A DNA stretch of 17,170 nt from positions 105,441 to 122,610 of IMG/VR virus record IMGVR_UViG_3300037245_003487. One strand, written 5' to 3'. This DNA comes from a virus (Duplodnaviria; Heunggongvirae; Uroviricota; Caudoviricetes). Made by a program: the position numbers and the translations under genes. This document shows, one piece after another, positions 1,658-16,755 of the stretch; positions within the stretch are counted from its first letter, which is position 1, and each line of letters begins with the position of its first letter. A model generated the notes under the pieces. That model was not told the origin of the DNA, ran no database searches, and worked only from the letters and a program-made list of their open reading frames with translations.

Positions 1658-2527
1658 TTATGTGCTATATTTAGCACCTTTACTTAAATTATCCTTCGCC
1701 CATAATGGCTGAAGGTTTTTGTAATGGAAGCATTTTTGTTGCTCACTTTCTTGTGTCAAATCATATAAAGCGCAAGGTTTTAAATGATCTATATGTATTT
1801 CACCATTCATGAATGCTTCCCATGTCATGTCTGGAGTGAATAGCGATTTGAAGTAGGTTGTGAATTGTTCTATTGTACAACCTAGTAATTGTAATGAACT
1901 GCATGTTTTATTCACATCTTTTCTTTTTAATGCATCTCTAATTCTAGTACTAATTTTCTTTTTAATTTGGTACTGTTCATTATTTTTCTTTTTTATAGAA
2001 TCACAATTTTTACAAATTGCCTTTAACCCATTCCCATTTTTATGAAAATATTCTAACGTATGCGGTATTTGTTTTTTGCAAACATTACATATTTTTAAAG
2101 TTTCTCCAGTTTTTGGATCAATTAATGGGGTCTCTATTTCAATTCCATTTTCTATTTCTTGCAACTGTTTCTTCAACTTCCTAATTCTATAAGCTTCGCT
2201 TTGCTTATTCTTTCTGGATTCCAAATTATCATATTTTCTATGTAGCTCCAGCGACTTTTTTTTTCTTTCCTCACCTAAAATAGGATCATTGAAGTATTTT
2301 TTTCTACTTAATTTTCTTTTTTCTTTATTGTTTTTTTCATATAACGCACCTGTTATTTTATGCCTAGCCTTAACTTCTGGAATTTTATTCCTTTCTTTAT
2401 AATGGCCAGAATAACAAGTTTTACAACTATTCATAACTCCATATTTACAGCCAGAATGTTTGTAAAAAAAATTTAATGTAGCAGATAATTCTTTTTTGCA
2501 CTTAGTACAAATTTTTGTTTTATTCAT
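1658..2527 (-). CDS. Free-standing HNH (homing-type) endonuclease with two Zn-ribbon modules
   Basis: The C-terminal HIDHLKP...NLQPLWAKDNLSKG is an HNH core, preceded by LLGCT...F...MTW. There are two CxxC...CKxC modules at aa 7-38 and 147-175. Confidence 0.85.
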   Translation of the reverse strand: MNKTKICTKCKKELSATLNFFYKHSGCKYGVMNSCKTCYSGHYKERNKIPEVKARHKITGALYEKNNKEKRKLSRKKYFNDPILGEERKKKSLELHRKYDNLESRKNKQSEAYRIRKLKKQLQEIENGIEIETPLIDPKTGETLKICNVCKKQIPHTLEYFHKNGNGLKAICKNCDSIKKKNNEQYQIKKKISTRIRDALKRKDVNKTCSSLQLLGCTIEQFTTYFKSLFTPDMTWEAFMNGEIHIDHLKPCALYDLTQESEQQKCFHYKNLQPLWAKDNLSKGAKYST

Positions 2528-5043: not shown

Positions 5044-5336
5044 TAAAACCTCCTGGTCTTTTCTGCTTTTAATTGTTTATCATCGTCCAAGATGATTTTA
5101 TACATCGGCATATCTTTACCTTCTGGAATCTCATCAAACAACTCATTACATACTGCATCATATTCAAAACTATCTAATACAAACATAAATTCACATCTAA
5201 GAATTATCATTTTACCCATTAGTTTCATAACCAATTCAGGCTCTTGTATAATCAATGCTCTGTTTAATCTAAAAGATCCCCTTTTCTCACTTAAAGATAA
5301 AGTTTTTTCTTTTTCATCACTCACTATCATCTCCAT
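5043..5336 (-). CDS. Hypothetical phage protein (start uncertain: ATG 5336, ATG 5330 or GTG 5324; the ORF track start at 5381 is probably too long)
   Basis: Its stop is coupled to the next ORF. A GGAG lies 6 nt before the GTG at 5324, overlapping the portal stop. Confidence 0.7.
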   Translation of the reverse strand: MEMIVSDEKEKTLSLSEKRGSFRLNRALIIQEPELVMKLMGKMIILRCEFMFVLDSFEYDAVCNELFDEIPEGKDMPMYKIILDDDKQLKAEKTRRF

Positions 5337-7095
5337 CACTTGGTTCTTTCTCTGGTTGGCTGTTATTAAGCTCACCATCATCTTCTATATCAGCATTCTG
5401 AGTTTTACCCAATACAGGAGTTAAAACTGGACCAGGCTGCAGTATAGTATAATTCAGGGGAACTAAGATAACATCACTGCCGTCTAGATCGTCCATACCA
5501 AGTATTCTTCTTTTTTCATTTATTGTTAGGAAATCACTTTTCTGCATTCTTTCCCATAATCTTTCACGTTTAATAGATAATGCAGGTATTTTTTCTAGAT
5601 CGAAATCTAAAAATAATTTCTCTGGATTATCTACTCCAAAGATCCAGTTATTCAACTCTTCTTTGATAATATTTAAGTAGGATACTACTGTATCTTCCCA
5701 AAAAATCATTCTTGCTGTTTCAAAATTACTGTTATGAACAACAATTCCATCTGCAATAAAGTTATGACTTCCTTCTACTTCTATATCAAAAACATCTTCT
5801 GCTTCTAATTCATTTATTTCTTTTATTTCAGAGAAATTTAAATATTCAATTGGTATAATATAACCAGCTAAATTACCTCGATGATCCTCATAAGGATTAG
5901 TGTGCATTTCAACAATAACATCACCAACTTTTAATCTTCCAACTTGAACATAAGTTAAATAATACTTATCCTGATATGTTTTTCTAACAAGTACTGGATG
6001 ATTATTAGTAGCTTTAAGCGTATTGTTTTCAGCAATAATTTCATAAAGTACTTTATGTCCAGTTTTCATTTGTTCAAGAACTTTTCTTTCTTCAAGTCTA
6101 TTACCGACTAATGAATAAACATAGTCTCCAACTGAAAGCTCTGAAATGCTTCTTAAACCTTTTGATGTTGCAACTTTAGCATAGGATGGTAAACAATAAG
6201 TACTATCGCCTATAATACCAAGCATTTGAGGTGGAACACCCCATCCTGAAGAAATGCCCCTTGCTAATTCCCTATTAGATTCCATGAAATCCAATTCTTT
6301 TGGAGTCCAATTATAAGGAACTACTTTAGCTCCATTCTCAACTATCAAATTACTTCCAGCACCATTAGCGCCAGAATGTTTATCTTTTAAAAGGTTTTCA
6401 AGTCTATCATATTGTTGATCACTTAATGTGCCATCAACTGTAAATACTAAACCTGGTCTACCCTCATTTTCAAGTATTTTCTTTTGCCATTCTATAGCTT
6501 CATTCGAAGTATCAATTTCTCTCATTAATGCTTTTATTGGAGATGCACCCCAGAAGTCATCTAATGGATTTGGTAATTTTGAATGTAAAACATCAGAATC
6601 ACCTGAAACTGGATCAATTTTAAATGGTATTGCTTTGTCAAAAGTATAACTATCTAATCCGCCAGTATTAGGATTAGTATTAATCTGCATTTTATCGGGT
6701 CTTAATGTATAAAGTTCTCTAGGATATTTCTCATTACCAATCATAACTCTTTCTAAAAAAGAATTACCACTTGCTAATAAATAAATAACCCACTTAAAAA
6801 GAACTGCATTAAATGTTTCATGAGGATTAGCTTTTTTTAAAAGATTCATTATTTCGTGATCTTCAACTTTATCTATCTTATCATTATTCCATTTAAAAAG
6901 CTTCCATGTTACATTACTTATAGACTGAGCAATCATAAACATAGCTCTAAAACAAATCCTATTTTTAAGATATGTCTCAGCTATAAATTGTTCATAATTA
7001 TCAGGAGTCCAATGAGCACTGCCCATTTTAGTATTAATAATCTGTGTTCTGCTTTCTTTTATGTGTCTTGGTTTAAATATATTTAAAAAACCCAT
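5317..7095 (-). CDS. Portal protein, HK97 family, intein-containing precursor (592 aa; about 437 aa after splicing)
   Basis: Motifs NPHET, 'YLLASGNSF', LRPDKM, 'DDFWGASPI', 'S.PKELDFME', 'GVPPQMLG', TY/SNFE and 'FLTINEKR..LG'. It lies upstream of the protease and capsid genes. Confidence 0.95.
   Translation of the reverse strand: MGFLNIFKPRHIKESRTQIINTKMGSAHWTPDNYEQFIAETYLKNRICFRAMFMIAQSISNVTWKLFKWNNDKIDKVEDHEIMNLLKKANPHETFNAVLFKWVIYLLASGNSFLERVMIGNEKYPRELYTLRPDKMQINTNPNTGGLDSYTFDKAIPFKIDPVSGDSDVLHSKLPNPLDDFWGASPIKALMREIDTSNEAIEWQKKILENEGRPGLVFTVDGTLSDQQYDRLENLLKDKHSGANGAGSNLIVENGAKVVPYNWTPKELDFMESNRELARGISSGWGVPPQMLGIIGDSTYCLPSYAKVATSKGLRSISELSVGDYVYSLVGNRLEERKVLEQMKTGHKVLYEIIAENNTLKATNNHPVLVRKTYQDKYYLTYVQVGRLKVGDVIVEMHTNPYEDHRGNLAGYIIPIEYLNFSEIKEINELEAEDVFDIEVEGSHNFIADGIVVHNSNFETARMIFWEDTVVSYLNIIKEELNNWIFGVDNPEKLFLDFDLEKIPALSIKRERLWERMQKSDFLTINEKRRILGMDDLDGSDVILVPLNYTILQPGPVLTPVLGKTQNADIEDDGELNNSQPEKEPSDGDDSE
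5731..6195 (-). mobile_element. Mini-intein (155 aa, Cys301-Asn455) in the portal protein
   Basis: It starts CLPSYAKVATSKG (block A, with VGDYVY), has ATNNHPVLV (block B TxxH) and DVFDIEVEGSHNFIADGIVVHN (blocks F/G), and is followed by a +1 Ser. Removing it restores the portal motif GDSTY-SNFE. It is too short to hold a LAGLIDADG domain. Confidence 0.95.
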
Positions 7096-11489: not shown

Positions 11490-11888
11490 TTATGCTTCAA
11501 TAGCCCATCCCCTTACTTCTAATCCATATGTGTTATTTGCACTTCCGCATGACATCTCAAAAACTAAATGATCATCAGAATTTAAGGATACTTCCTCACC
11601 TGAAGGCCATATAGCTCTATAATCTTGTATGTCAAGCATAGTATGACTCAATATTATATAATTAAAGTTTGAGCCTCTATCTGCACTTATATATATTTTT
11701 AAATATTCTTGTGATATAAAAGGAACAGACCAATGCATTCTAATTTCAGTTAGAGTAAATCTTCTAGCTTTTGCATGTTCATCTGGACCAATAGACTGTT
11801 GTACAGCCCCATTAGATCCATTTTCACCTGAATAGAATGCGAACTCACTCCATCGATCATGGGCGTATATATCCCCACTAAAACTCAT
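11490..11888 (-). CDS. Hypothetical, probable virion protein (paralog of 8557-8952)
   Basis: 132-aa ORF whose start overlaps the last codons of the HNH gene. Confidence 0.75.
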   Translation of the reverse strand: MSFSGDIYAHDRWSEFAFYSGENGSNGAVQQSIGPDEHAKARRFTLTEIRMHWSVPFISQEYLKIYISADRGSNFNYIILSHTMLDIQDYRAIWPSGEEVSLNSDDHLVFEMSCGSANNTYGLEVRGWAIEA

Positions 11889-12555
11889 ATTTACCGCCCT
11901 TACTCATATTATCAAAACCCCATAAAGGCTGTAAATTGGTATAATTAAAACATTTTTCTTGTTCTTCTTTTTTTGTTAAATCAAAACTGCAGCAAGGACG
12001 AATATGATCTATATGCCATCCATAATAACTATAGTTATCAAAGGTCATTCCTGGTTGGAATTTAGATTTCAAATACAACTTTAATTCTTCAATTGAACAA
12101 CCTAATAATTCAATTGTTGATTTAGATTTATATTTACCTTTTAATGCACCCCAAATTCTACCTCTTAAATTATCAGTTAGTTTATAATTAATATCATTTT
12201 TGTATTTTTCTAATTTATATGCACTTATTTTATTTCTATTATTTTTTCCGTATACCCTATCTTGCTCTCTTTTACATATCTTGCATTTAGCATTCAATCC
12301 ATTCTTAGAATTTCCGTTTTTATTAAAATATTTTAAAGTACCTGGGTACTCTTTACCGCAGCAAGTACATTTTTTAAGTACATTTTTATCTAAAATAAAA
12401 TTTTGATTTCTTAATTTATATTTTTCTTTATATATTTTTTTACATGATTTGCATTGTGATTCTAATCCATATTTTCCAAACTTCGCATTATTAAAATTAT
12501 CTTCAATAGCTGATAGTTCAGTATTACATTTAGTACATATCTTAGTTTTTATCAC
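11878..12555 (-). CDS. Free-standing HNH (homing-type) endonuclease with two Zn-ribbon modules
   Basis: GTG start with an AAAGGA RBS. It has LLGCSIEEL, WHIDHIRP and NYTNLQPLWGFDNMSKG, plus two CxxC...CKxC modules. It is a paralog of 1658-2527. Confidence 0.85.
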   Translation of the reverse strand: MIKTKICTKCNTELSAIEDNFNNAKFGKYGLESQCKSCKKIYKEKYKLRNQNFILDKNVLKKCTCCGKEYPGTLKYFNKNGNSKNGLNAKCKICKREQDRVYGKNNRNKISAYKLEKYKNDINYKLTDNLRGRIWGALKGKYKSKSTIELLGCSIEELKLYLKSKFQPGMTFDNYSYYGWHIDHIRPCCSFDLTKKEEQEKCFNYTNLQPLWGFDNMSKGGKYEF

Positions 12556-14511: not shown

Positions 14512-14621
14512 TCAATCTCATGGTCAAATGTAAATTAATTGTAATAGCAGGAAACTGGGTATGGATAAAAGCATTGAAGTCAAACAATGTTAAATTTTTT
14601 ACTTATACCAACCTACTGTAC

Positions 14622-14650
14622 TTGACAAAAATAAATAAATATGTTATTAT
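14622..14650 (+). promoter_or_regulatory. Sigma70-type promoter
   Basis: TTGACA (14622-14627), 17 nt, TATTAT (14645-14650), with an extended TG. A GAGG RBS lies at 14661. Confidence 0.7.
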
Positions 14651-14669
14651 TAAAAATAAAGAGGTTTTT

Positions 14670-15512
14670 ATGGAAAGTGGTTATATTTACGTTATAAGAA
14701 GCGAATTAGTAAAAAACTGGATCAAGATTGGAAGATCTACAAATTTATTTAATAGAATGAAAAGTCATTCATCTTCAATGCCTGGTAATATTGAAAATTT
14801 ATTATCATTCCATGCTGATGGATACAAAAAAACAGAATTATTCTTACATCATTTTTTTAAAAATTATAGAGCTACGCCTAAAAGAGAATGGTTTATTTTT
14901 CCTGATATAATTATAAAAAAAATTAAATTTCTCAATTTTATATTAGATGAATCTAAAAAGACACATCATGATGATGTTAAAGATATCTTTATTAAAGAAT
15001 TTAATGAAAATATTCATACAGAAAATGGAATATGTTATGACTGCGGAAATGAATTGGATTTAAATAGTTATAATTTTCACAGGGACAATAATTCATTATC
15101 TAAATTTAAATCTATTTGTAAAAAATGCAGGAATGAAAAAGAAAAATTAAAGTATGGCGGCTACAAAAAACAAAAGGAATATAGAAAAGAATATAATTAT
15201 ATCTCAATAATAAATAAAAAAAATAAAATAATATTAAAAGAGTCCGATGGGCCACTTCTAGAAGATGGAATATTATTAATTATAAAAACAAGTGATAATG
15301 CTAGATTTATAAAATTTTTTACCGATGAGTTTTCCTTAGAAATGAATGACTTTAAATTTAATAAATTATTAAAAGGAATAAAAAATGTTAATGACCAATT
15401 ACAGATAAATACAAATTTTTATACTTATGATTACTTTAGGGTTAGTCATGTTATTGGTCTTTTTGAAAAATATTGTAAAACAAATGTAAATGCTGTTGAC
15501 AACGAAAATTAA
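14670..15512 (+). CDS. GIY-YIG superfamily endonuclease (T5orf172/MUG113-like) with a Zn-ribbon
   Basis: GYIYVI...WIKIGRSTNL..RM...E..LH..F..YR...REWF is a T5orf172-like GIY-YIG pattern. The start was reset to the ATG at 14670 because the promoter and RBS lie inside the longer ORF-track call. A CYDC...CKKC module lies at 15033-15128. Confidence 0.8.
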   Translation: MESGYIYVIRSELVKNWIKIGRSTNLFNRMKSHSSSMPGNIENLLSFHADGYKKTELFLHHFFKNYRATPKREWFIFPDIIIKKIKFLNFILDESKKTHHDDVKDIFIKEFNENIHTENGICYDCGNELDLNSYNFHRDNNSLSKFKSICKKCRNEKEKLKYGGYKKQKEYRKEYNYISIINKKNKIILKESDGPLLEDGILLIIKTSDNARFIKFFTDEFSLEMNDFKFNKLLKGIKNVNDQLQINTNFYTYDYFRVSHVIGLFEKYCKTNVNAVDNEN

Positions 15513-15524
15513 TTATGTTACATT
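15496..15524 (+). promoter_or_regulatory. Sigma70-type promoter for the 253-aa gene and its RNA tail
   Basis: TTGACA (15496-15501), 17 nt, TACATT (15519-15524), with an extended TG. An AAGGAGG RBS lies at 15541-15547. Confidence 0.7.
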
Positions 15525-15553
15525 ACAATTAACTTAAATAAAGGAGGCTCCTA

Positions 15554-16315
15554 ATGAGCGAAAAAACAAAAAATCAGCTTCATCAATTATTAGCTGTAGA
15601 GAATGGCAGAAAACAGCAAGCAGTCAATATTATGAATGAAACTATTAATACGTTTCAGAAAAAAACAGATCACTTTGATGGTCTAACTAAAATCTACTCA
15701 GCATTTGAAGAAGGTGGGCAAGAAGTTCCACCAGAAACCAAAGAAGTAAAAGAAACAGTTCCATCAAAAATTAATTATGCAAAAAAATCAATAATCAAAG
15801 CTATTGATGCGCAATTATCAAAGGAAGAATCAAATGCATCTGGTATTGTAAGGGCAGAATTACTTGTAAAAGGTGTTAGCTTTGGCGAGTTATCATCAAC
15901 TTCATTACTTGCACTTGAAAGCCATATGCTTAAAGTTAGAGCTGTATATAAAGCTATTCCAACTTTAGACCCTGTAAGAAAATGGAACAAAGATGAATTT
16001 GGCATTTATATAACTGACTCTGAAGTTAAATATAAAACATCTAAAAAACAACAAGTTATTACGCTTTACGAAGCGACCAAAGAACACCCAGCTCAAGTTC
16101 AGCTTGACTATGTAGACACACAAGTTGGTCAGTATGATACAACTTATAAATCAGGTAAAATTACACCAAAGCAAAAATCAGACTTACTTGCTAAAATTGA
16201 CAACATCATTGATGCAGTTAAAAGAGCAAGAGCGAAAGCTAACCAGGCTGAAATTGTTGAAATGAAAATTGGTAATAAATTATTTGATTACATTAACAAA
16301 GATATTTTAGGCTAG
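15554..16315 (+). CDS. Uncharacterised helical/beta-hairpin protein (resembles, from memory and unverified, the DUF7873-like family)
   Basis: 253-aa ORF with a perfect RBS and its own promoter. Conserved-looking motifs include LHQLLAVE, LLALE, IPTLDP..KW, LYEATKEHPAQV, SG.I and AVKRARAKAN. Function is unknown. Confidence 0.85.
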   Translation: MSEKTKNQLHQLLAVENGRKQQAVNIMNETINTFQKKTDHFDGLTKIYSAFEEGGQEVPPETKEVKETVPSKINYAKKSIIKAIDAQLSKEESNASGIVRAELLVKGVSFGELSSTSLLALESHMLKVRAVYKAIPTLDPVRKWNKDEFGIYITDSEVKYKTSKKQQVITLYEATKEHPAQVQLDYVDTQVGQYDTTYKSGKITPKQKSDLLAKIDNIIDAVKRARAKANQAEIVEMKIGNKLFDYINKDILG

Positions 16316-16432
16316 ATTTATATATCAGCATTAGTCTTAGCTTTACAAGGAATCTTAGCTCATAGTAGCTATGTTTTCCGATCAGACTTTTGCCTAACTA
16401 GCTTTATTCATTAAAATCTATTTTACATACAA

Positions 16433-16587
16433 GATGATGGTTTTTTAAACATCCTGTGCGTTGGTTCGAATCCAACATCTGCATCTGACAAGTGGATGAG
16501 TATATAATATGAATAAAACTCTCCAAGTGTTTGATGCGGATTAGCTCAGTGGCAGAGCAAGGATATTAGCAACAAAAACCAAAGATC
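16433..16587 (+). ncRNA. Circularly permuted tRNA-like RNA, unit A (3' half before 5' half)
   Basis: 3' half: ATCCT 16451-55, GTGC, T-arm GTTGG-TTCGAAT-CCAAC 16460-76, ATCTGCA 16477-83. 5' half: TGCGGAT 16535-41, TA, D-arm GCTC-AGTGGCA-GAGC 16544-58, A, AGGAT 16560-64. The acceptor (7 bp, one G.U) and anticodon (5 bp) stems pair only in the permuted order. Confidence 0.8.
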
Positions 16588-16609
16588 GAGTTATTAGATT
16601 TTAATACAA

Positions 16610-16680
16610 TACTAAAAGGTTCGACTCCTTTTGCTTCCAATTAAAAAACCAAGGGAGCAGCACAAATGGATGGTGCAGTA
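16610..16680 (+). ncRNA. Circularly permuted tRNA-like RNA, unit B (compact, alanine-type acceptor)
   Basis: T-arm AAAGG-TTCGACT-CCTTT 16615-31 and TGCTTCC-A 16632-39, a 13-nt linker, GGGAGCA 16653-59, D-like arm GCAC-AAATGGATG-GTGC 16660-76. AGTA 16677-80 can pair with TACT 16610-13. Confidence 0.65.
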
Positions 16681-16692
16681 CAAACAAACTTA

Positions 16693-16730
16693 GGGGGCTA
16701 TACAGGATACATGTGGCCCCCATTTTTATT
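16693..16730 (+). terminator. Intrinsic terminator closing the ORF plus RNA transcript
   Basis: GGGGGCTATA pairs with TGTGGCCCCC (10 bp including G.U) and is followed by ATTTTTATT. Confidence 0.7.
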
Positions 16731-16755
16731 TATTGTAAGTATTGTGTAAAAACAC

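What the first reader, a model, noticed from the sequence alone, without database searches (positions are those of the whole stretch)
15496..16730. Candidate protein-plus-RNA system: one transcription unit encoding an uncharacterised protein and two tandem permuted tRNA-like RNAs
Seen: a near-consensus promoter, an AAGGAGG RBS, a 253-aa ORF, a 6-nt periodic tract, permuted tRNA-like unit A, a short spacer, permuted unit B and one terminator, with no terminator seen in between. Established: permuted tRNA genes are known from some algae and archaea. Two-piece tmRNA genes in some bacteria have the same order: acceptor 3' piece, excised spacer, 5' piece. Inference: the protein and RNAs form a functional module, for example a tRNA-mimic decoy against host tRNA-sensing or tRNA-cleaving defences, a ribosome rescue/tagging device, or a ribonucleoprotein. 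I know of no described phage system with this layout, but cannot exclude one.
Basis: partly seen in the sequence, partly recalled or inferred. Interest (0 to 1): 0.9.

Follow-up and report, generated by a model that had tools for sequence, protein, structure and literature searches.

The report
tRNA-mimic RNA paired with DUF7873
This marine-sediment phage carries a gene for an uncharacterised protein (DUF7873) followed by a structured RNA built from back-to-front, anticodon-less tRNA look-alikes; the same protein and RNA occur together in many phages and bacteria and resemble bacterial Y RNA particles, but without their usual Ro60 protein.

Summary
The 253-aa ORF (15554-16315) is Pfam DUF7873. 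About 415 nt of non-coding sequence follows: a tract with NAG every 6 nt, then a strong permuted tRNA-like head (unit A: T arm, loop-capped acceptor stem, D arm, no anticodon loop) on a long helix, then a weaker, degenerate head (unit B), then a terminator.

Unit A scores 70 bits on my covariance model. Unit B scores only 22-26 bits and has no orthologue for testing covariation.

The protein-RNA link is real:
- Strict permuted-tRNA parses follow 42 of 59 viral homologues and appear in none of four control regions.
- All seven acceptor pairs covary.
- No protein-coding neighbour is conserved across 136 loci.
- In Cytophagales the gene and RNA are often unlinked, yet they co-occur by genome (18/22 against 3/99). 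Two of the three exceptions are genuine YrlA RNAs next to Ro60; the third is a tRNA gene pair.

The window is better read as one composite RNA than as two RNAs.

The closest known system is YrlA/Ro60, but membership fails: no Rfam hit, no Ro60 gene, no Ro-binding motif.

DUF7873 has no recognisable fold and is predicted to form a symmetric dimer. Its function is unknown. Binding, transcription and processing have not been shown.

This scan has already reported the same module on more than 100 other genomes. I found no published description.

The parts
15496..15524 (+). Sigma-70-like promoter candidate: TTGACA, 17-nt spacer, TG-extended TACATT
   Evidence: 10 of 12 matches. Such matches are no more frequent here than in shuffled sequence, so this is plausible only.
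15541..15547 (+). Shine-Dalgarno sequence AAGGAGG, 6 nt before the ATG
   Evidence: Sequence.
15554..16315 (+). DUF7873 protein gene, 253 aa. Invariant motif EATKEHPAQ at residues 173-181, on the tip of a long beta-hairpin.
   Evidence: Pfam PF25283, E 1.4e-69. Alignment A2. AF2 model with pLDDT 87 and pTM 0.74. No fold match outside its own family. Predicted symmetric homodimer, ipSAE 0.68 against 0.00 in the best control.
16326..16346 (+). Leader block 1: NAG motifs at 6-nt spacing (CAGCAUUAGUCUUAGCUUUAC)
   Evidence: Conserved from phages to Cytophagales in alignment A6.
16349..16379 (+). Variable hairpin between the two leader blocks (GGAA...UUCC)
   Evidence: Minimum-energy folds. Length varies between relatives.
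16380..16409 (+). Leader block 2 (GAUCAGACUUUUGCCUAACUAGCUUUAUUC), holding the conserved YAGCUUUA motif
   Evidence: Alignment A6 and periodicity test.
16411..16420 (+). 5' strand of the long closing helix P1, which pairs with 16595-16604
   Evidence: Minimum-energy fold. The equivalent strands in L001 and L002 differ in sequence but stay complementary (read by eye; not tested statistically).
16441..16568 (+). Unit A, the permuted tRNA-like head. Closing ('anticodon') stem 16451-16455 with 16560-16564. Variable loop 16456-16459. T arm 16460-16476. Acceptor 3' strand 16477-16483. Capping hairpin 16484-16534. Acceptor 5' strand 16535-16541. D arm 16544-16558. No CCA.
   Evidence: R1 70.1 bits, E 1e-28. 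Fold z = -4.0. Family covariation.
16595..16604 (+). 3' strand of closing helix P1
16599..16686 (+). Unit B, a degenerate permuted tRNA-like head. T arm 16615-16631. Acceptor 3' strand 16632-16638. A-rich 14-nt cap 16639-16652. Acceptor 5' strand 16653-16659. D-like hairpin 16660-16676. No U8/N9 linker, shortened variable loop, no CCA. The acceptor carries G3.U70 and A73.
   Evidence: R1 22.1 bits. R2 26.0 bits, E 1.8e-6, with alignment shown. Fold z = -1.5. No orthologue found in relatives.
16693..16731 (+). Intrinsic terminator: GGGGGC...GCCCCC hairpin followed by AUUUUUAUUU
   Evidence: Fold and sequence. Missed by the scanner because its loop exceeds 8 nt.

Best explanation
The locus encodes a two-component module. 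One component is the DUF7873 protein, probably a symmetric homodimer. The other is a roughly 400-nt structured non-coding RNA.

The RNA core is a tract of NAG motifs spaced 6 nt apart, followed by a tRNA mimic. In the mimic the T arm, a 7-bp acceptor stem capped by a loop, and the D arm appear in permuted order. A long helix takes the place of the anticodon arm, so the RNA cannot decode. This phage adds a second, degenerate head (unit B) before the terminator.

Shown here: the RNA structure is under selection, and gene and RNA travel together, in cis or in trans, without Ro60.

Inferred: the two components work as a ribonucleoprotein analogous to Ro60/Y RNA. The protein dimer may hold the periodic tract, in the way TRAP and HutP read spaced NAG triplets. 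The tRNA-shaped heads would then engage proteins that recognise the tRNA body, such as RNase P, the CCA-adding enzyme, modification or repair enzymes, or tRNA-directed nucleases. The phage would use this to influence tRNA or RNA surveillance during infection.

In relatives whose heads encode N-CCA, RNase P cleavage and 3' trimming probably open the capped acceptor stem, as shown for Mycobacterium smegmatis YrlA. The window's own heads lack CCA.
For: Protein:
- The ORF matches DUF7873 at E 1e-69.
- It is a confident model with no known fold.
- A homodimer is predicted at ipSAE 0.68; the best of three controls scored 0.00. That mark was reached by 20 of 30 known homodimers and 1 of 23 monomers. 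Runs agree on at least 97% of contacts, and pLDDT is at least 86.

Linkage in cis:
- Strict permuted-tRNA parses occur in 42 of 59 viral loci within 600 nt downstream on the same strand (57 hits). None occur in about 147 kb of control sequence: the opposite strand, the upstream region and the gene body.
- By covariance model, essentially every viral locus with downstream sequence has a hit, as do at least 53 of 57 non-Bacteroidota bacterial loci.
- Cultured Klebsiella, Ralstonia and Gordonia phages have it too.

Structure:
- Across 67 heads the acceptor stem is 99% paired and all 7 pairs show double changes. The T stem is 99.7% paired. The covariation score is 0.83 against 0.22 in shuffles and at most 0.21 when the partners are slid.

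No other partner:
- No protein-coding neighbour is conserved in 136 loci. The largest cluster that does not overlap the gene appears in 7 loci.

Linkage in trans:
- Bernardetia sp. OM2101 has a solo gene and three tandem complete RNA units about 135 kb away. G106, G024 and G042 show the same pattern.
- In 121 Cytophagales genomes, hits of at least 56 bits occur in 18 of 22 DUF7873-positive genomes and 3 of 99 negative ones (Fisher p 7e-15).
- Of the three negatives, two are YrlA-type RNAs beside a TROVE gene and one is a tRNA gene pair.

Other features:
- 6-nt periodicity at family level: z = 12.4.
- N-CCA follows the acceptor 3' strand in 23 of 55 distinct heads.
Against: - Nothing here shows that the protein binds the RNA, that the RNA is transcribed, or that it is processed.
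- The family is not basic overall (median pI 6.3), which gives no general support for nucleic-acid binding.
- The seed heads were selected for perfect acceptor pairing, so the percent-paired figures are inflated. The independent controls are those.
- Unit B is weak, and no orthologue is available to test it.
- Many Cytophagales genes have no RNA within 4 kb, so the protein does not need an RNA in cis.
- At looser thresholds (42 bits or more) the model also hits 38 of 99 DUF7873-negative genomes. Only three were inspected; that one was a tRNA gene pair makes tandem tRNA genes the likely source of the rest. The genome-level statistic therefore depends on the cut-off.
- The idea that the protein binds the periodic tract rests only on analogy and on the predicted dimer.
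Confidence: 0.6

Rival explanations
1. tRNA-body decoy or inhibitor. The RNA heads act as competitive inhibitors or sponges for host enzymes that recognise the tRNA body, such as tRNA-cleaving defence nucleases or tRNA sensors. DUF7873 would only stabilise, process or load the RNA. This overlaps the best explanation but makes the RNA the effector and counter-defence the purpose.
For: - The heads keep the T-loop and D-loop consensus and a 7-bp acceptor stem but lack an anticodon loop, so anticodon nucleases could bind them without cutting.
- The family is mostly viral: 75% of an 876-member Atlas cluster.
- The module often sits in phage tRNA clusters, with up to 13 tRNAs in a locus.
- This phage carries 7 tRNAs and an RtcB fragment.
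Against: - The module is also a resident gene in 18% of sampled Cytophagales genomes and occurs in many other phyla. That fits a cellular housekeeping or stress role at least as well.
- No defence or anti-defence gene is a conserved neighbour.
- No target is known.
Confidence: 0.2
2. Divergent member of the YrlA/Ro60 Y RNA system. The RNA would be an ordinary Y RNA serving a Ro60 protein supplied by the host.
For: - Same T arm, capped acceptor stem and D arm topology as YrlA (PMC4201824).
- My model R1 also detects genuine YrlA RNAs next to TROVE genes in G093 and G055.
Against: - No Rfam RF02553 hit at E up to 1.
- No TROVE gene in the complete phage genome, nor in the DUF7873-positive genomes G001, G106 and G024.
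- No GNCGAAN0-1G motif.
- The RNA tracks DUF7873, not TROVE.
Confidence: 0.04
3. Two-piece tmRNA-like or aminoacylatable split tRNA. After cleavage in the acceptor cap, a head would be charged and would act on ribosomes.
For: - The gene order (3' acceptor piece, spacer, 5' piece) is that of permuted tmRNA genes.
- 23 of 55 distinct heads in relatives encode N-CCA.
- Unit B carries G1-C72, G2-C71, G3.U70 and A73, the AlaRS identity set (sequence; alignment).
- M. smegmatis YrlA gains CCA in vivo (PMC4201824).
Against: - ARAGORN finds no tmRNA.
- No Rfam tmRNA family matches.
- Neither window head has CCA.
- G3.U70 is not a family trait.
- No SmpB-type partner is present.
- The only open frame after unit B runs through the terminator, so its stop codon would lie beyond the transcript end.
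- The periodic tract lies on the wrong side of the head to serve as a tag template.
Confidence: 0.04
4. Not a functional RNA. The region would be decayed tRNA genes, an attachment-site remnant, or merely a structured 3' UTR that stabilises or regulates the DUF7873 mRNA in cis.
For: - Phages carry tRNA fragments at att sites.
- Unit B is degenerate, and its fold is not unusually stable (z = -1.5).
- In this window the RNA is probably co-transcribed with the ORF.
Against: - Compensatory changes keep all four stems across 67 heads.
- The leader motifs are conserved from phages to Cytophagales.
- Stand-alone, multi-copy RNA genes with their own terminators lie far from the protein gene.
- No hits occur in the control regions.
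Confidence: 0.05

Closest known systems
YrlA-class bacterial and phage Y RNAs with Ro60/Rsr (Rfam RF02553; Chen et al. 2014, PMC4201824)
   Same: - A non-coding RNA whose effector module mimics a tRNA, with the T arm, a loop-capped acceptor-like stem and the D arm in that order. A helix opens where the anticodon arm would be.
- Often two RNAs or heads in tandem.
- Found in both bacteria and phages.
- Encoded next to one dedicated protein gene on the same strand.
- Some members have a 7-bp acceptor stem and are opened by RNase P and given CCA.
   Different: - The partner is DUF7873 (about 250 aa, unknown fold, predicted dimer), not the Ro60 ring.
- No Ro60 gene in the phage or in tested carrier genomes.
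- No Rfam match and no GNCGAAN0-1G Ro-binding motif.
- Carries a 6-nt periodic NAG tract that YrlA lacks.
- Heads are more tRNA-like, with a regular 7-bp acceptor stem and often an encoded N-CCA.
- The RNA can sit in stand-alone tandem arrays far from the protein gene.
Two-piece (circularly permuted) tmRNA genes of alpha- and beta-proteobacteria and cyanobacteria
   Same: Permuted gene order, with the T arm and 3' acceptor strand upstream of the 5' acceptor strand and a spacer between them. The anticodon arm is replaced by a long helix.
   Different: - No tag reading frame and no pseudoknots detected.
- A canonical D arm instead of the reduced tmRNA D-loop.
- No conserved G3.U70.
- No ARAGORN or Rfam match.
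- The partner is not SmpB.
TRAP and HutP, ring-shaped proteins that read spaced (G/U)AG triplets (general knowledge, not tested here)
   Same: The RNA carries NAG triplets at a regular short spacing in two blocks. The partner protein is predicted to be oligomeric.
   Different: - No sequence or fold similarity between DUF7873 and TRAP or HutP was found.
- The spacing here is 6 nt.
- Binding is pure inference.

Membership tests
YrlA / bacterial Y RNA (RF02553) | tRNA-like module ordered T arm, capped acceptor-like stem, D arm | tested here: met
   Parse, fold, model hits and covariation.
YrlA / bacterial Y RNA (RF02553) | Match to the Rfam covariance model | tested here: not met
   cmscan of the whole window at E up to 1 returned only a chance miRNA hit.
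YrlA / bacterial Y RNA (RF02553) | Ro60/Rsr (TROVE) gene within about 4 kb on the same strand | tested here: not met
   No TROVE match in the complete 122.6-kb phage genome, nor in the carrier genomes G001, G106 and G024. The positive control works: G093 and G055 have TROVE beside their YrlA-type RNAs.
YrlA / bacterial Y RNA (RF02553) | GNCGAAN0-1G Ro-binding motif near the 5' end (PMC4201824) | tested here: not met
   No occurrence in 16316-16740.
YrlA / bacterial Y RNA (RF02553) | Bound by Ro60 in vivo | not testable with these tools
   Needs immunoprecipitation.
DUF7873-associated tRNA-mimic RNA (undescribed; defined by this scan) | DUF7873 gene in the same genome, usually directly upstream on the same strand | tested here: met
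   PF25283 at E 1.4e-69. The stop codon lies 11 nt before the leader.
DUF7873-associated tRNA-mimic RNA (undescribed; defined by this scan) | Permuted tRNA-like head matching the family model | tested here: met
   Unit A scores 70.1 bits on R1. Unit B scores only 22-26 bits.
DUF7873-associated tRNA-mimic RNA (undescribed; defined by this scan) | 6-nt periodic NAG tract in two blocks upstream of the main head | tested here: met
   Window counts, conserved blocks in A6 and family periodicity z = 12.4.
DUF7873-associated tRNA-mimic RNA (undescribed; defined by this scan) | Long helix closing the head in place of an anticodon arm | tested here: inconclusive
   Predicted by the minimum-energy fold, and complementary in L001 and L002 by eye. 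RNAalifold did not recover it from alignment A6.
Two-piece tmRNA | Detected by ARAGORN or by the Rfam tmRNA families | tested here: not met
Two-piece tmRNA | G3.U70 with an encoded CCA end, and a tag reading frame | tested here: not met
   Unit A has C3-G70. Unit B has G3.U70 and A73 but no CCA. No frame closes before the terminator (sequence).

The most novel reading that the evidence does not exclude
DUF7873 and this RNA form a previously unrecognised class of ribonucleoprotein that is widespread in tailed phages and in at least half a dozen bacterial phyla. A dimeric protein of new fold would read a 6-nt periodic NAG tract and present one or two tRNA-shaped heads. Some heads would be opened and given CCA. 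The heads would capture or redirect enzymes that handle tRNA. This would be a Ro60-independent counterpart of Y RNPs, which phages use in conflicts over tRNA.
Probability: 0.35. Interest if true: 0.85.

Novelty: new variant of a known kind. Interest (0 to 1): 0.75.

Why it matters
Bacterial tRNA-mimic RNAs are so far known as partners of Ro60, and what the tRNA-like domain does is still an open question. A second protein, unrelated to Ro60, has its own family of tRNA-mimic RNAs. That suggests a tRNA-shaped head carried on a protein is a general design rather than a Ro60 peculiarity.

It also offers tractable systems for finding what the heads bind. The module occurs in cultured Klebsiella, Ralstonia, Gordonia, Vibrio, Rhizobium and Arthrobacter phages.

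There is a practical gain for annotation too. In deposited phage genomes the RNA region is currently annotated as a suppressor tRNA or as small hypothetical ORFs.

Tried and rejected
- Rfam, all 4227 families at E up to 1, gave nothing relevant. ARAGORN found no tRNA or tmRNA.
- blastn of the locus against 50,697 phage records found no match.
- PHROGs and NCBIfam have no family for the protein.
- Fold searches found only the protein's own family or generic helical-hairpin matches: PDB Foldseek best E 0.04; VIA-align wide best Z 8.3 on helical bundles; the second look best Z 6.6; AFDB clusters; ESM Atlas. Cas7 chains appeared among the Foldseek rows at E 0.06-0.18 with TM about 0.1. The 6-nt periodicity made me consider a Cas7-like filament, but those scores are noise level and the second look did not keep them. 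I rejected the idea as unsupported.
- Sequencing runs: only the probable source DNA run (marine sediment metagenome) was listed, and no RNA holder was listed. Expression and RNA ends could therefore not be examined, and read laying was not used.
- Searches of viral, genome and metagenome contigs found no relative above 62% protein identity, and none of the relatives has a unit B orthologue. Unit B could therefore not be tested for covariation.
- RNAalifold on 13 full-length RNAs recovered only the head, not the leader or helix P1.
- Literature: 'DUF7873' returns zero papers. Searches on YrlA, Y RNA, tRNA-like elements in phages and structured RNA found no description of this module.
- A type III toxin-antitoxin reading was considered and dropped. 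The RNA lies downstream of the gene, it is not a short-repeat array, and it can be unlinked from the gene.
Full report
**Setting.** The window is the last 17 kb of a complete 122.6-kb virus record with terminal repeats. The genome is 29.8% G+C and carries seven tRNA genes at 65-73 kb. The only sequencing run that holds it is a marine sediment metagenome, probably its source. The minus strand of the window encodes a tailed-phage structural module: an HK97-type capsid protein, an S78 prohead protease, a portal protein interrupted by a mini-intein, and a large ORF I read as the large terminase, without a Pfam match. The finding lies beyond that terminase-like ORF, on the plus strand. A T5orf172/GIY-YIG-type gene precedes it.

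**The observation.**
- A TTGACA-17-TACATT promoter-like site lies at 15496-15524. It matches 10 of 12 positions, but such matches are as common in shuffled sequence.
- AAGGAGG lies at 15541-15547, and the 253-aa ORF runs from 15554 to 16315.
- A tract rich in TAG follows, with TTAG at 16331, 16337 and 16355 in one 6-nt phase. TAG occurs 6 times against 2.0 in shuffles (p about 0.01).
- Unit A (16441-16568) comes next, then unit B (16599-16686), then a hairpin with a U tract at 16693-16731.
- The consensus scan found no terminator-like site between the promoter candidate and that hairpin.
- ARAGORN and Rfam report nothing.

**Unit A.**
- The elements run in this order: a 5-bp closing stem, a 4-nt variable loop, a T arm (GUUGG UUCGAAU CCAAC), a 7-bp acceptor stem extended and capped by a hairpin, then UA, then a canonical D arm (GCUC AGUGGCA GAGC).
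- The closing stem stands where the anticodon stem would be and continues into a long helix.
- The minimum-energy fold of the isolated segment gives exactly this four-way junction (z = -4.0).

**Unit B.**
- It has a perfect T loop, a 7-bp acceptor hairpin with an A-rich cap, and a D-like hairpin whose loop keeps the GG.
- It lacks the U8/N9 linker and most of the variable loop. Its fold is not unusually stable (z = -1.5).

**The protein.**
- The ORF is a full-length member of Pfam DUF7873 (E 1.4e-69). It has no PHROG or NCBIfam family.
- An AlphaFold model built on 48 homologues is confident (pLDDT 87, pTM 0.74). It shows four long helices with beta elements inserted between them.
- These include a long beta-hairpin whose tip carries the invariant EATKEHPAQ motif.
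- Foldseek and VIA-align searches of the PDB, AFDB clusters and the ESM Atlas found only the protein's own family or generic helical matches.
- Two copies are predicted to form an extensive symmetric dimer. The score is ipSAE 0.68, and the best of three controls scored 0.00. That mark was reached by 20 of 30 known homodimers and 1 of 23 monomers. The runs agree on at least 97% of contacts, and pLDDT is at least 86. This supports dimerisation but does not show it.
- The conserved hairpin tip lies outside the predicted interface.
- The family is not basic overall (median pI 6.3).

**Is the RNA linked to the protein?**
- I collected 59 viral, 80 genomic and 80 metagenomic loci that encode homologues.
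- I applied a strict parse to the 59 viral loci. It required a T-loop consensus, at least 4 of 5 T-stem pairs, 7 of 7 acceptor pairs across a cap of at most about 70 nt, and a D stem. It hit 42 of the 59 loci within 600 nt downstream on the coding strand (57 heads). It hit nothing on the opposite strand, upstream on either strand, or inside the gene, about 147 kb of controls in all.
- A covariance model built from 57 heads (R1) finds a head just downstream in essentially every viral locus that has downstream sequence. It also finds one in at least 53 of 57 non-Bacteroidota bacterial loci and in the closest metagenomic relatives.
- Three cultured phages that I inspected have it as well: Klebsiella vB_KpM_FBKp24, Ralstonia phiRSL1 and Gordonia Ziko.
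- On 67 heads the acceptor stem is 99% paired, and all seven pairs show changes on both sides. The T stem is 99.7% paired, the D stem 76% and the closing stem 69%.
- The covariation score is 0.83, against 0.22 in shuffles and at most 0.21 when the partners are slid. The seed was selected for acceptor pairing, which inflates the percentages. The empty controls are the independent check.
- Clustering all ORFs in 136 loci found no conserved protein-coding neighbour. Every large cluster was an antisense ORF overlapping the gene itself. The RNA is the only conserved partner.

**The unlinked cases.**
- Among the Bacteroidota genes, which are the window protein's closest bacterial relatives at about 50% identity, only about 8 of 23 have the RNA next to them. 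The rest end in a terminator with no head within 4 kb.
- I searched the complete genome of Bernardetia sp. OM2101, which has such a solo gene. Three tandem RNA units lie about 135 kb away. Each has the periodic leader, a head, a 3' tRNA-like element and its own terminator, and no DUF7873 gene is nearby.
- I inspected three further genomes, and all three show the same arrays.
- In a sample of 121 Cytophagales genomes, 22 carry DUF7873, and all 22 have an R1 hit of at least 44.8 bits.
- At 56 bits or more the count is 18 of 22 against 3 of 99 DUF7873-negative genomes (Fisher p 7e-15).
- One of the three negatives is a pair of tRNA genes. The other two are a different permuted tRNA-like RNA lying 1-1.5 kb downstream of a TROVE/Ro60 gene, which makes them genuine YrlA-type Y RNAs.
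- The three carrier genomes I tested have no TROVE gene, and neither does the phage.
- So there are two parallel systems, each RNA following its own protein. The RNA can act in trans.
- Caveat: at 42 bits or more, R1 also hits 38 of 99 negative genomes. I inspected only three negatives, one of which was a tRNA gene pair, so tandem tRNA genes are the likely source. The statistic therefore depends on the cut-off.

**Architecture of the whole RNA.**
- I aligned the window with its closest relatives and with the Bacteroidota RNAs. The leader is conserved in sequence. It has two blocks of NAG motifs at 6-nt spacing (for example CUAGUC UAAGUU UUAGAC UUAG) on either side of a variable hairpin, followed by the motif YAGCUUUA.
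- Across 41 distinct viral loci, AG recurs at lag 6 (69 pairs observed, 17.6 expected, z = 12.4) and at lag 12 (z = 7.3) in the 110 nt upstream of the head.
- The head sits on a long helix. In the window, 16411-16420 pairs with 16595-16604, and an inner helix pairs 16439-16445 with 16575-16581. The outer strands differ in L001 and L002 but stay complementary. I read this by eye, and RNAalifold did not recover it.
- The part after the helix varies between relatives:
  - a terminator alone in the closest relatives (L001, L003, L165);
  - a normal-order, odd tRNA-like element with a weak A/U acceptor stem, no CCA and assorted anticodons, followed by a terminator (L163, L164, the Bacteroidota units and many viral loci);
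  - a second permuted head, upstream or downstream of the main head, in the many two-headed RNAs.
- The window fills this slot with unit B. Unit B scores 22.1 bits on R1 and 26.0 bits on a model of heads with a long D-loop (R2). Units A and B are the only two R2 hits in the whole window.
- No relative has an orthologue of unit B. It is a credible degenerate head, but it has not been tested by covariation.
- The window therefore holds one composite RNA rather than two tandem RNAs.

**Transcription.** Only 11 nt separate the stop codon from leader block 1, and no terminator intervenes, so co-transcription with the ORF is the simplest reading for this phage. It is not a family rule. The Cytophagales arrays are autonomous, and the Klebsiella phage record annotates a promoter between the gene and the RNA. 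No RNA run holding this sequence was listed.

**Processing.** In 23 of 55 distinct heads, the 7-bp acceptor 3' strand is followed directly by N-CCA. Both heads of the Klebsiella phage RNA have this. This suggests the cap is removed by RNase P and 3' trimming in those members. That has been shown for M. smegmatis YrlA, which also has a 7-bp stem (PMC4201824). The window's heads have no CCA, and unit A's stem is extended, so they may stay closed.

**Mechanism.**
- Shown: a conserved, covarying tRNA mimic without an anticodon loop, a conserved periodic leader, and a dedicated protein that co-occurs with the RNA.
- Inferred: the two form an RNP. The dimer may bind the two NAG blocks, by analogy with TRAP and HutP, which read spaced NAG triplets (general knowledge). 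The heads would engage proteins that recognise the tRNA body.
- The phage context fits a role in tRNA or RNA surveillance or in conflicts over tRNA. Many carrier phages have tRNA clusters, and this phage has seven tRNAs and an RtcB fragment.
- The module is also resident in many bacteria, so a general cellular role, as for Ro60, is equally possible.

**Comparison with known systems.**
- The closest known system is YrlA/Ro60. The topology of the mimic, the tandem tendency, the distribution in bacteria and phages, and the one-gene linkage are the same.
- The locus fails the tests that define YrlA membership: the Rfam model, a Ro60 neighbour and the Ro-binding motif.
- Two-piece tmRNA shares only the permuted order.
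- I found no paper describing DUF7873 or this RNA. One candidate prior source, Burroughs and Aravind 2016, could not be read.

**Earlier work in this scan.** A look-up returned 134 earlier findings on at least 104 genomes that describe the same module, with the same closest-known system. I had reached the YrlA-like reading before that look-up. A later check recorded there questioned whether pairing is the rule. That note led me to run the genome-level test, which shows that unlinked genes have their RNA elsewhere in the genome.

**Verdict.** The interpretation as a protein-plus-RNA module is supported, while its details (two RNAs, an obligate single transcript, a tmRNA-like role) are not. The module appears undescribed in print, is widespread, and can be tested in cultured phages. 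Its function remains unknown.

Noticed in passing
window 5317-7095 (-): The portal protein gene is interrupted by a mini-intein (Pfam Intein_splicing and Hint, residues about 297-454 of 591).
   Followed up: partly
G000:C1:66627-66854 (-), locus L061 1492-1956: Within the tRNA cluster, the phage genome encodes only the C-terminal part of RtcB (a 153-aa ORF matching profile positions 347-425). No N-terminal part was found. It may be a split or decayed RNA ligase gene.
   Followed up: partly
L155 (G093:C125:107700-108800) and L156 (G055:C5:2716200-2717200): Two Cytophagales genomes without DUF7873 carry several tandem permuted tRNA-like RNAs of another kind, flanked by GUCGUA...UUACUUCG motifs. 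They lie 1-1.5 kb downstream of a TROVE/Ro60 gene on the same strand and look like multi-copy YrlA-type Y RNAs.
   Followed up: partly
L157 (Klebsiella phage vB_KpM_FBKp24, NC_061421), L158 (Gordonia phage Ziko), L159 (Ralstonia phage phiRSL1): In deposited records of cultured phages the RNA region is annotated as 'tRNA-Sup-TTA' straddling the two heads (FBKp24) or as small hypothetical CDSs (Ziko gp125 and gp126). These are probably misannotations. In phiRSL1 the region is an unannotated 480-nt gap after ORF270.
   Followed up: partly
window 16632-16659: Unit B's acceptor stem has G1-C72, G2-C71 and G3.U70, followed by A73. This is the alanyl-tRNA synthetase identity set, as in tRNA-Ala and tmRNA. 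It has no CCA and the stem is capped. Other heads in the family do not share the feature, so it may be chance.
   Followed up: partly
L150 6440-7900 (-) (Bernardetia sp. OM2101), L151-L153: The stand-alone RNA units in Cytophagales sit in tandem arrays of two to three units of about 500 nt. Leader, head and terminator are nearly identical between units, but each unit has a different normal-order tRNA-like 3' element.
   Followed up: partly
window 1658-2527 (-) and 11878-12555 (-): Two paralogous cysteine-rich ORFs with HNH-like C-termini are inserted in the structural module. They have no Pfam hit and are probably homing endonucleases. An ORF with a T5orf172 domain lies at 14520-15512 (+).
   Followed up: no
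L164 2263-2850: In one 58%-identical relative, an extra ORF of about 190 aa is inserted between the DUF7873 gene and the RNA leader. Gene and RNA can therefore be separated even within this clade.
   Followed up: no
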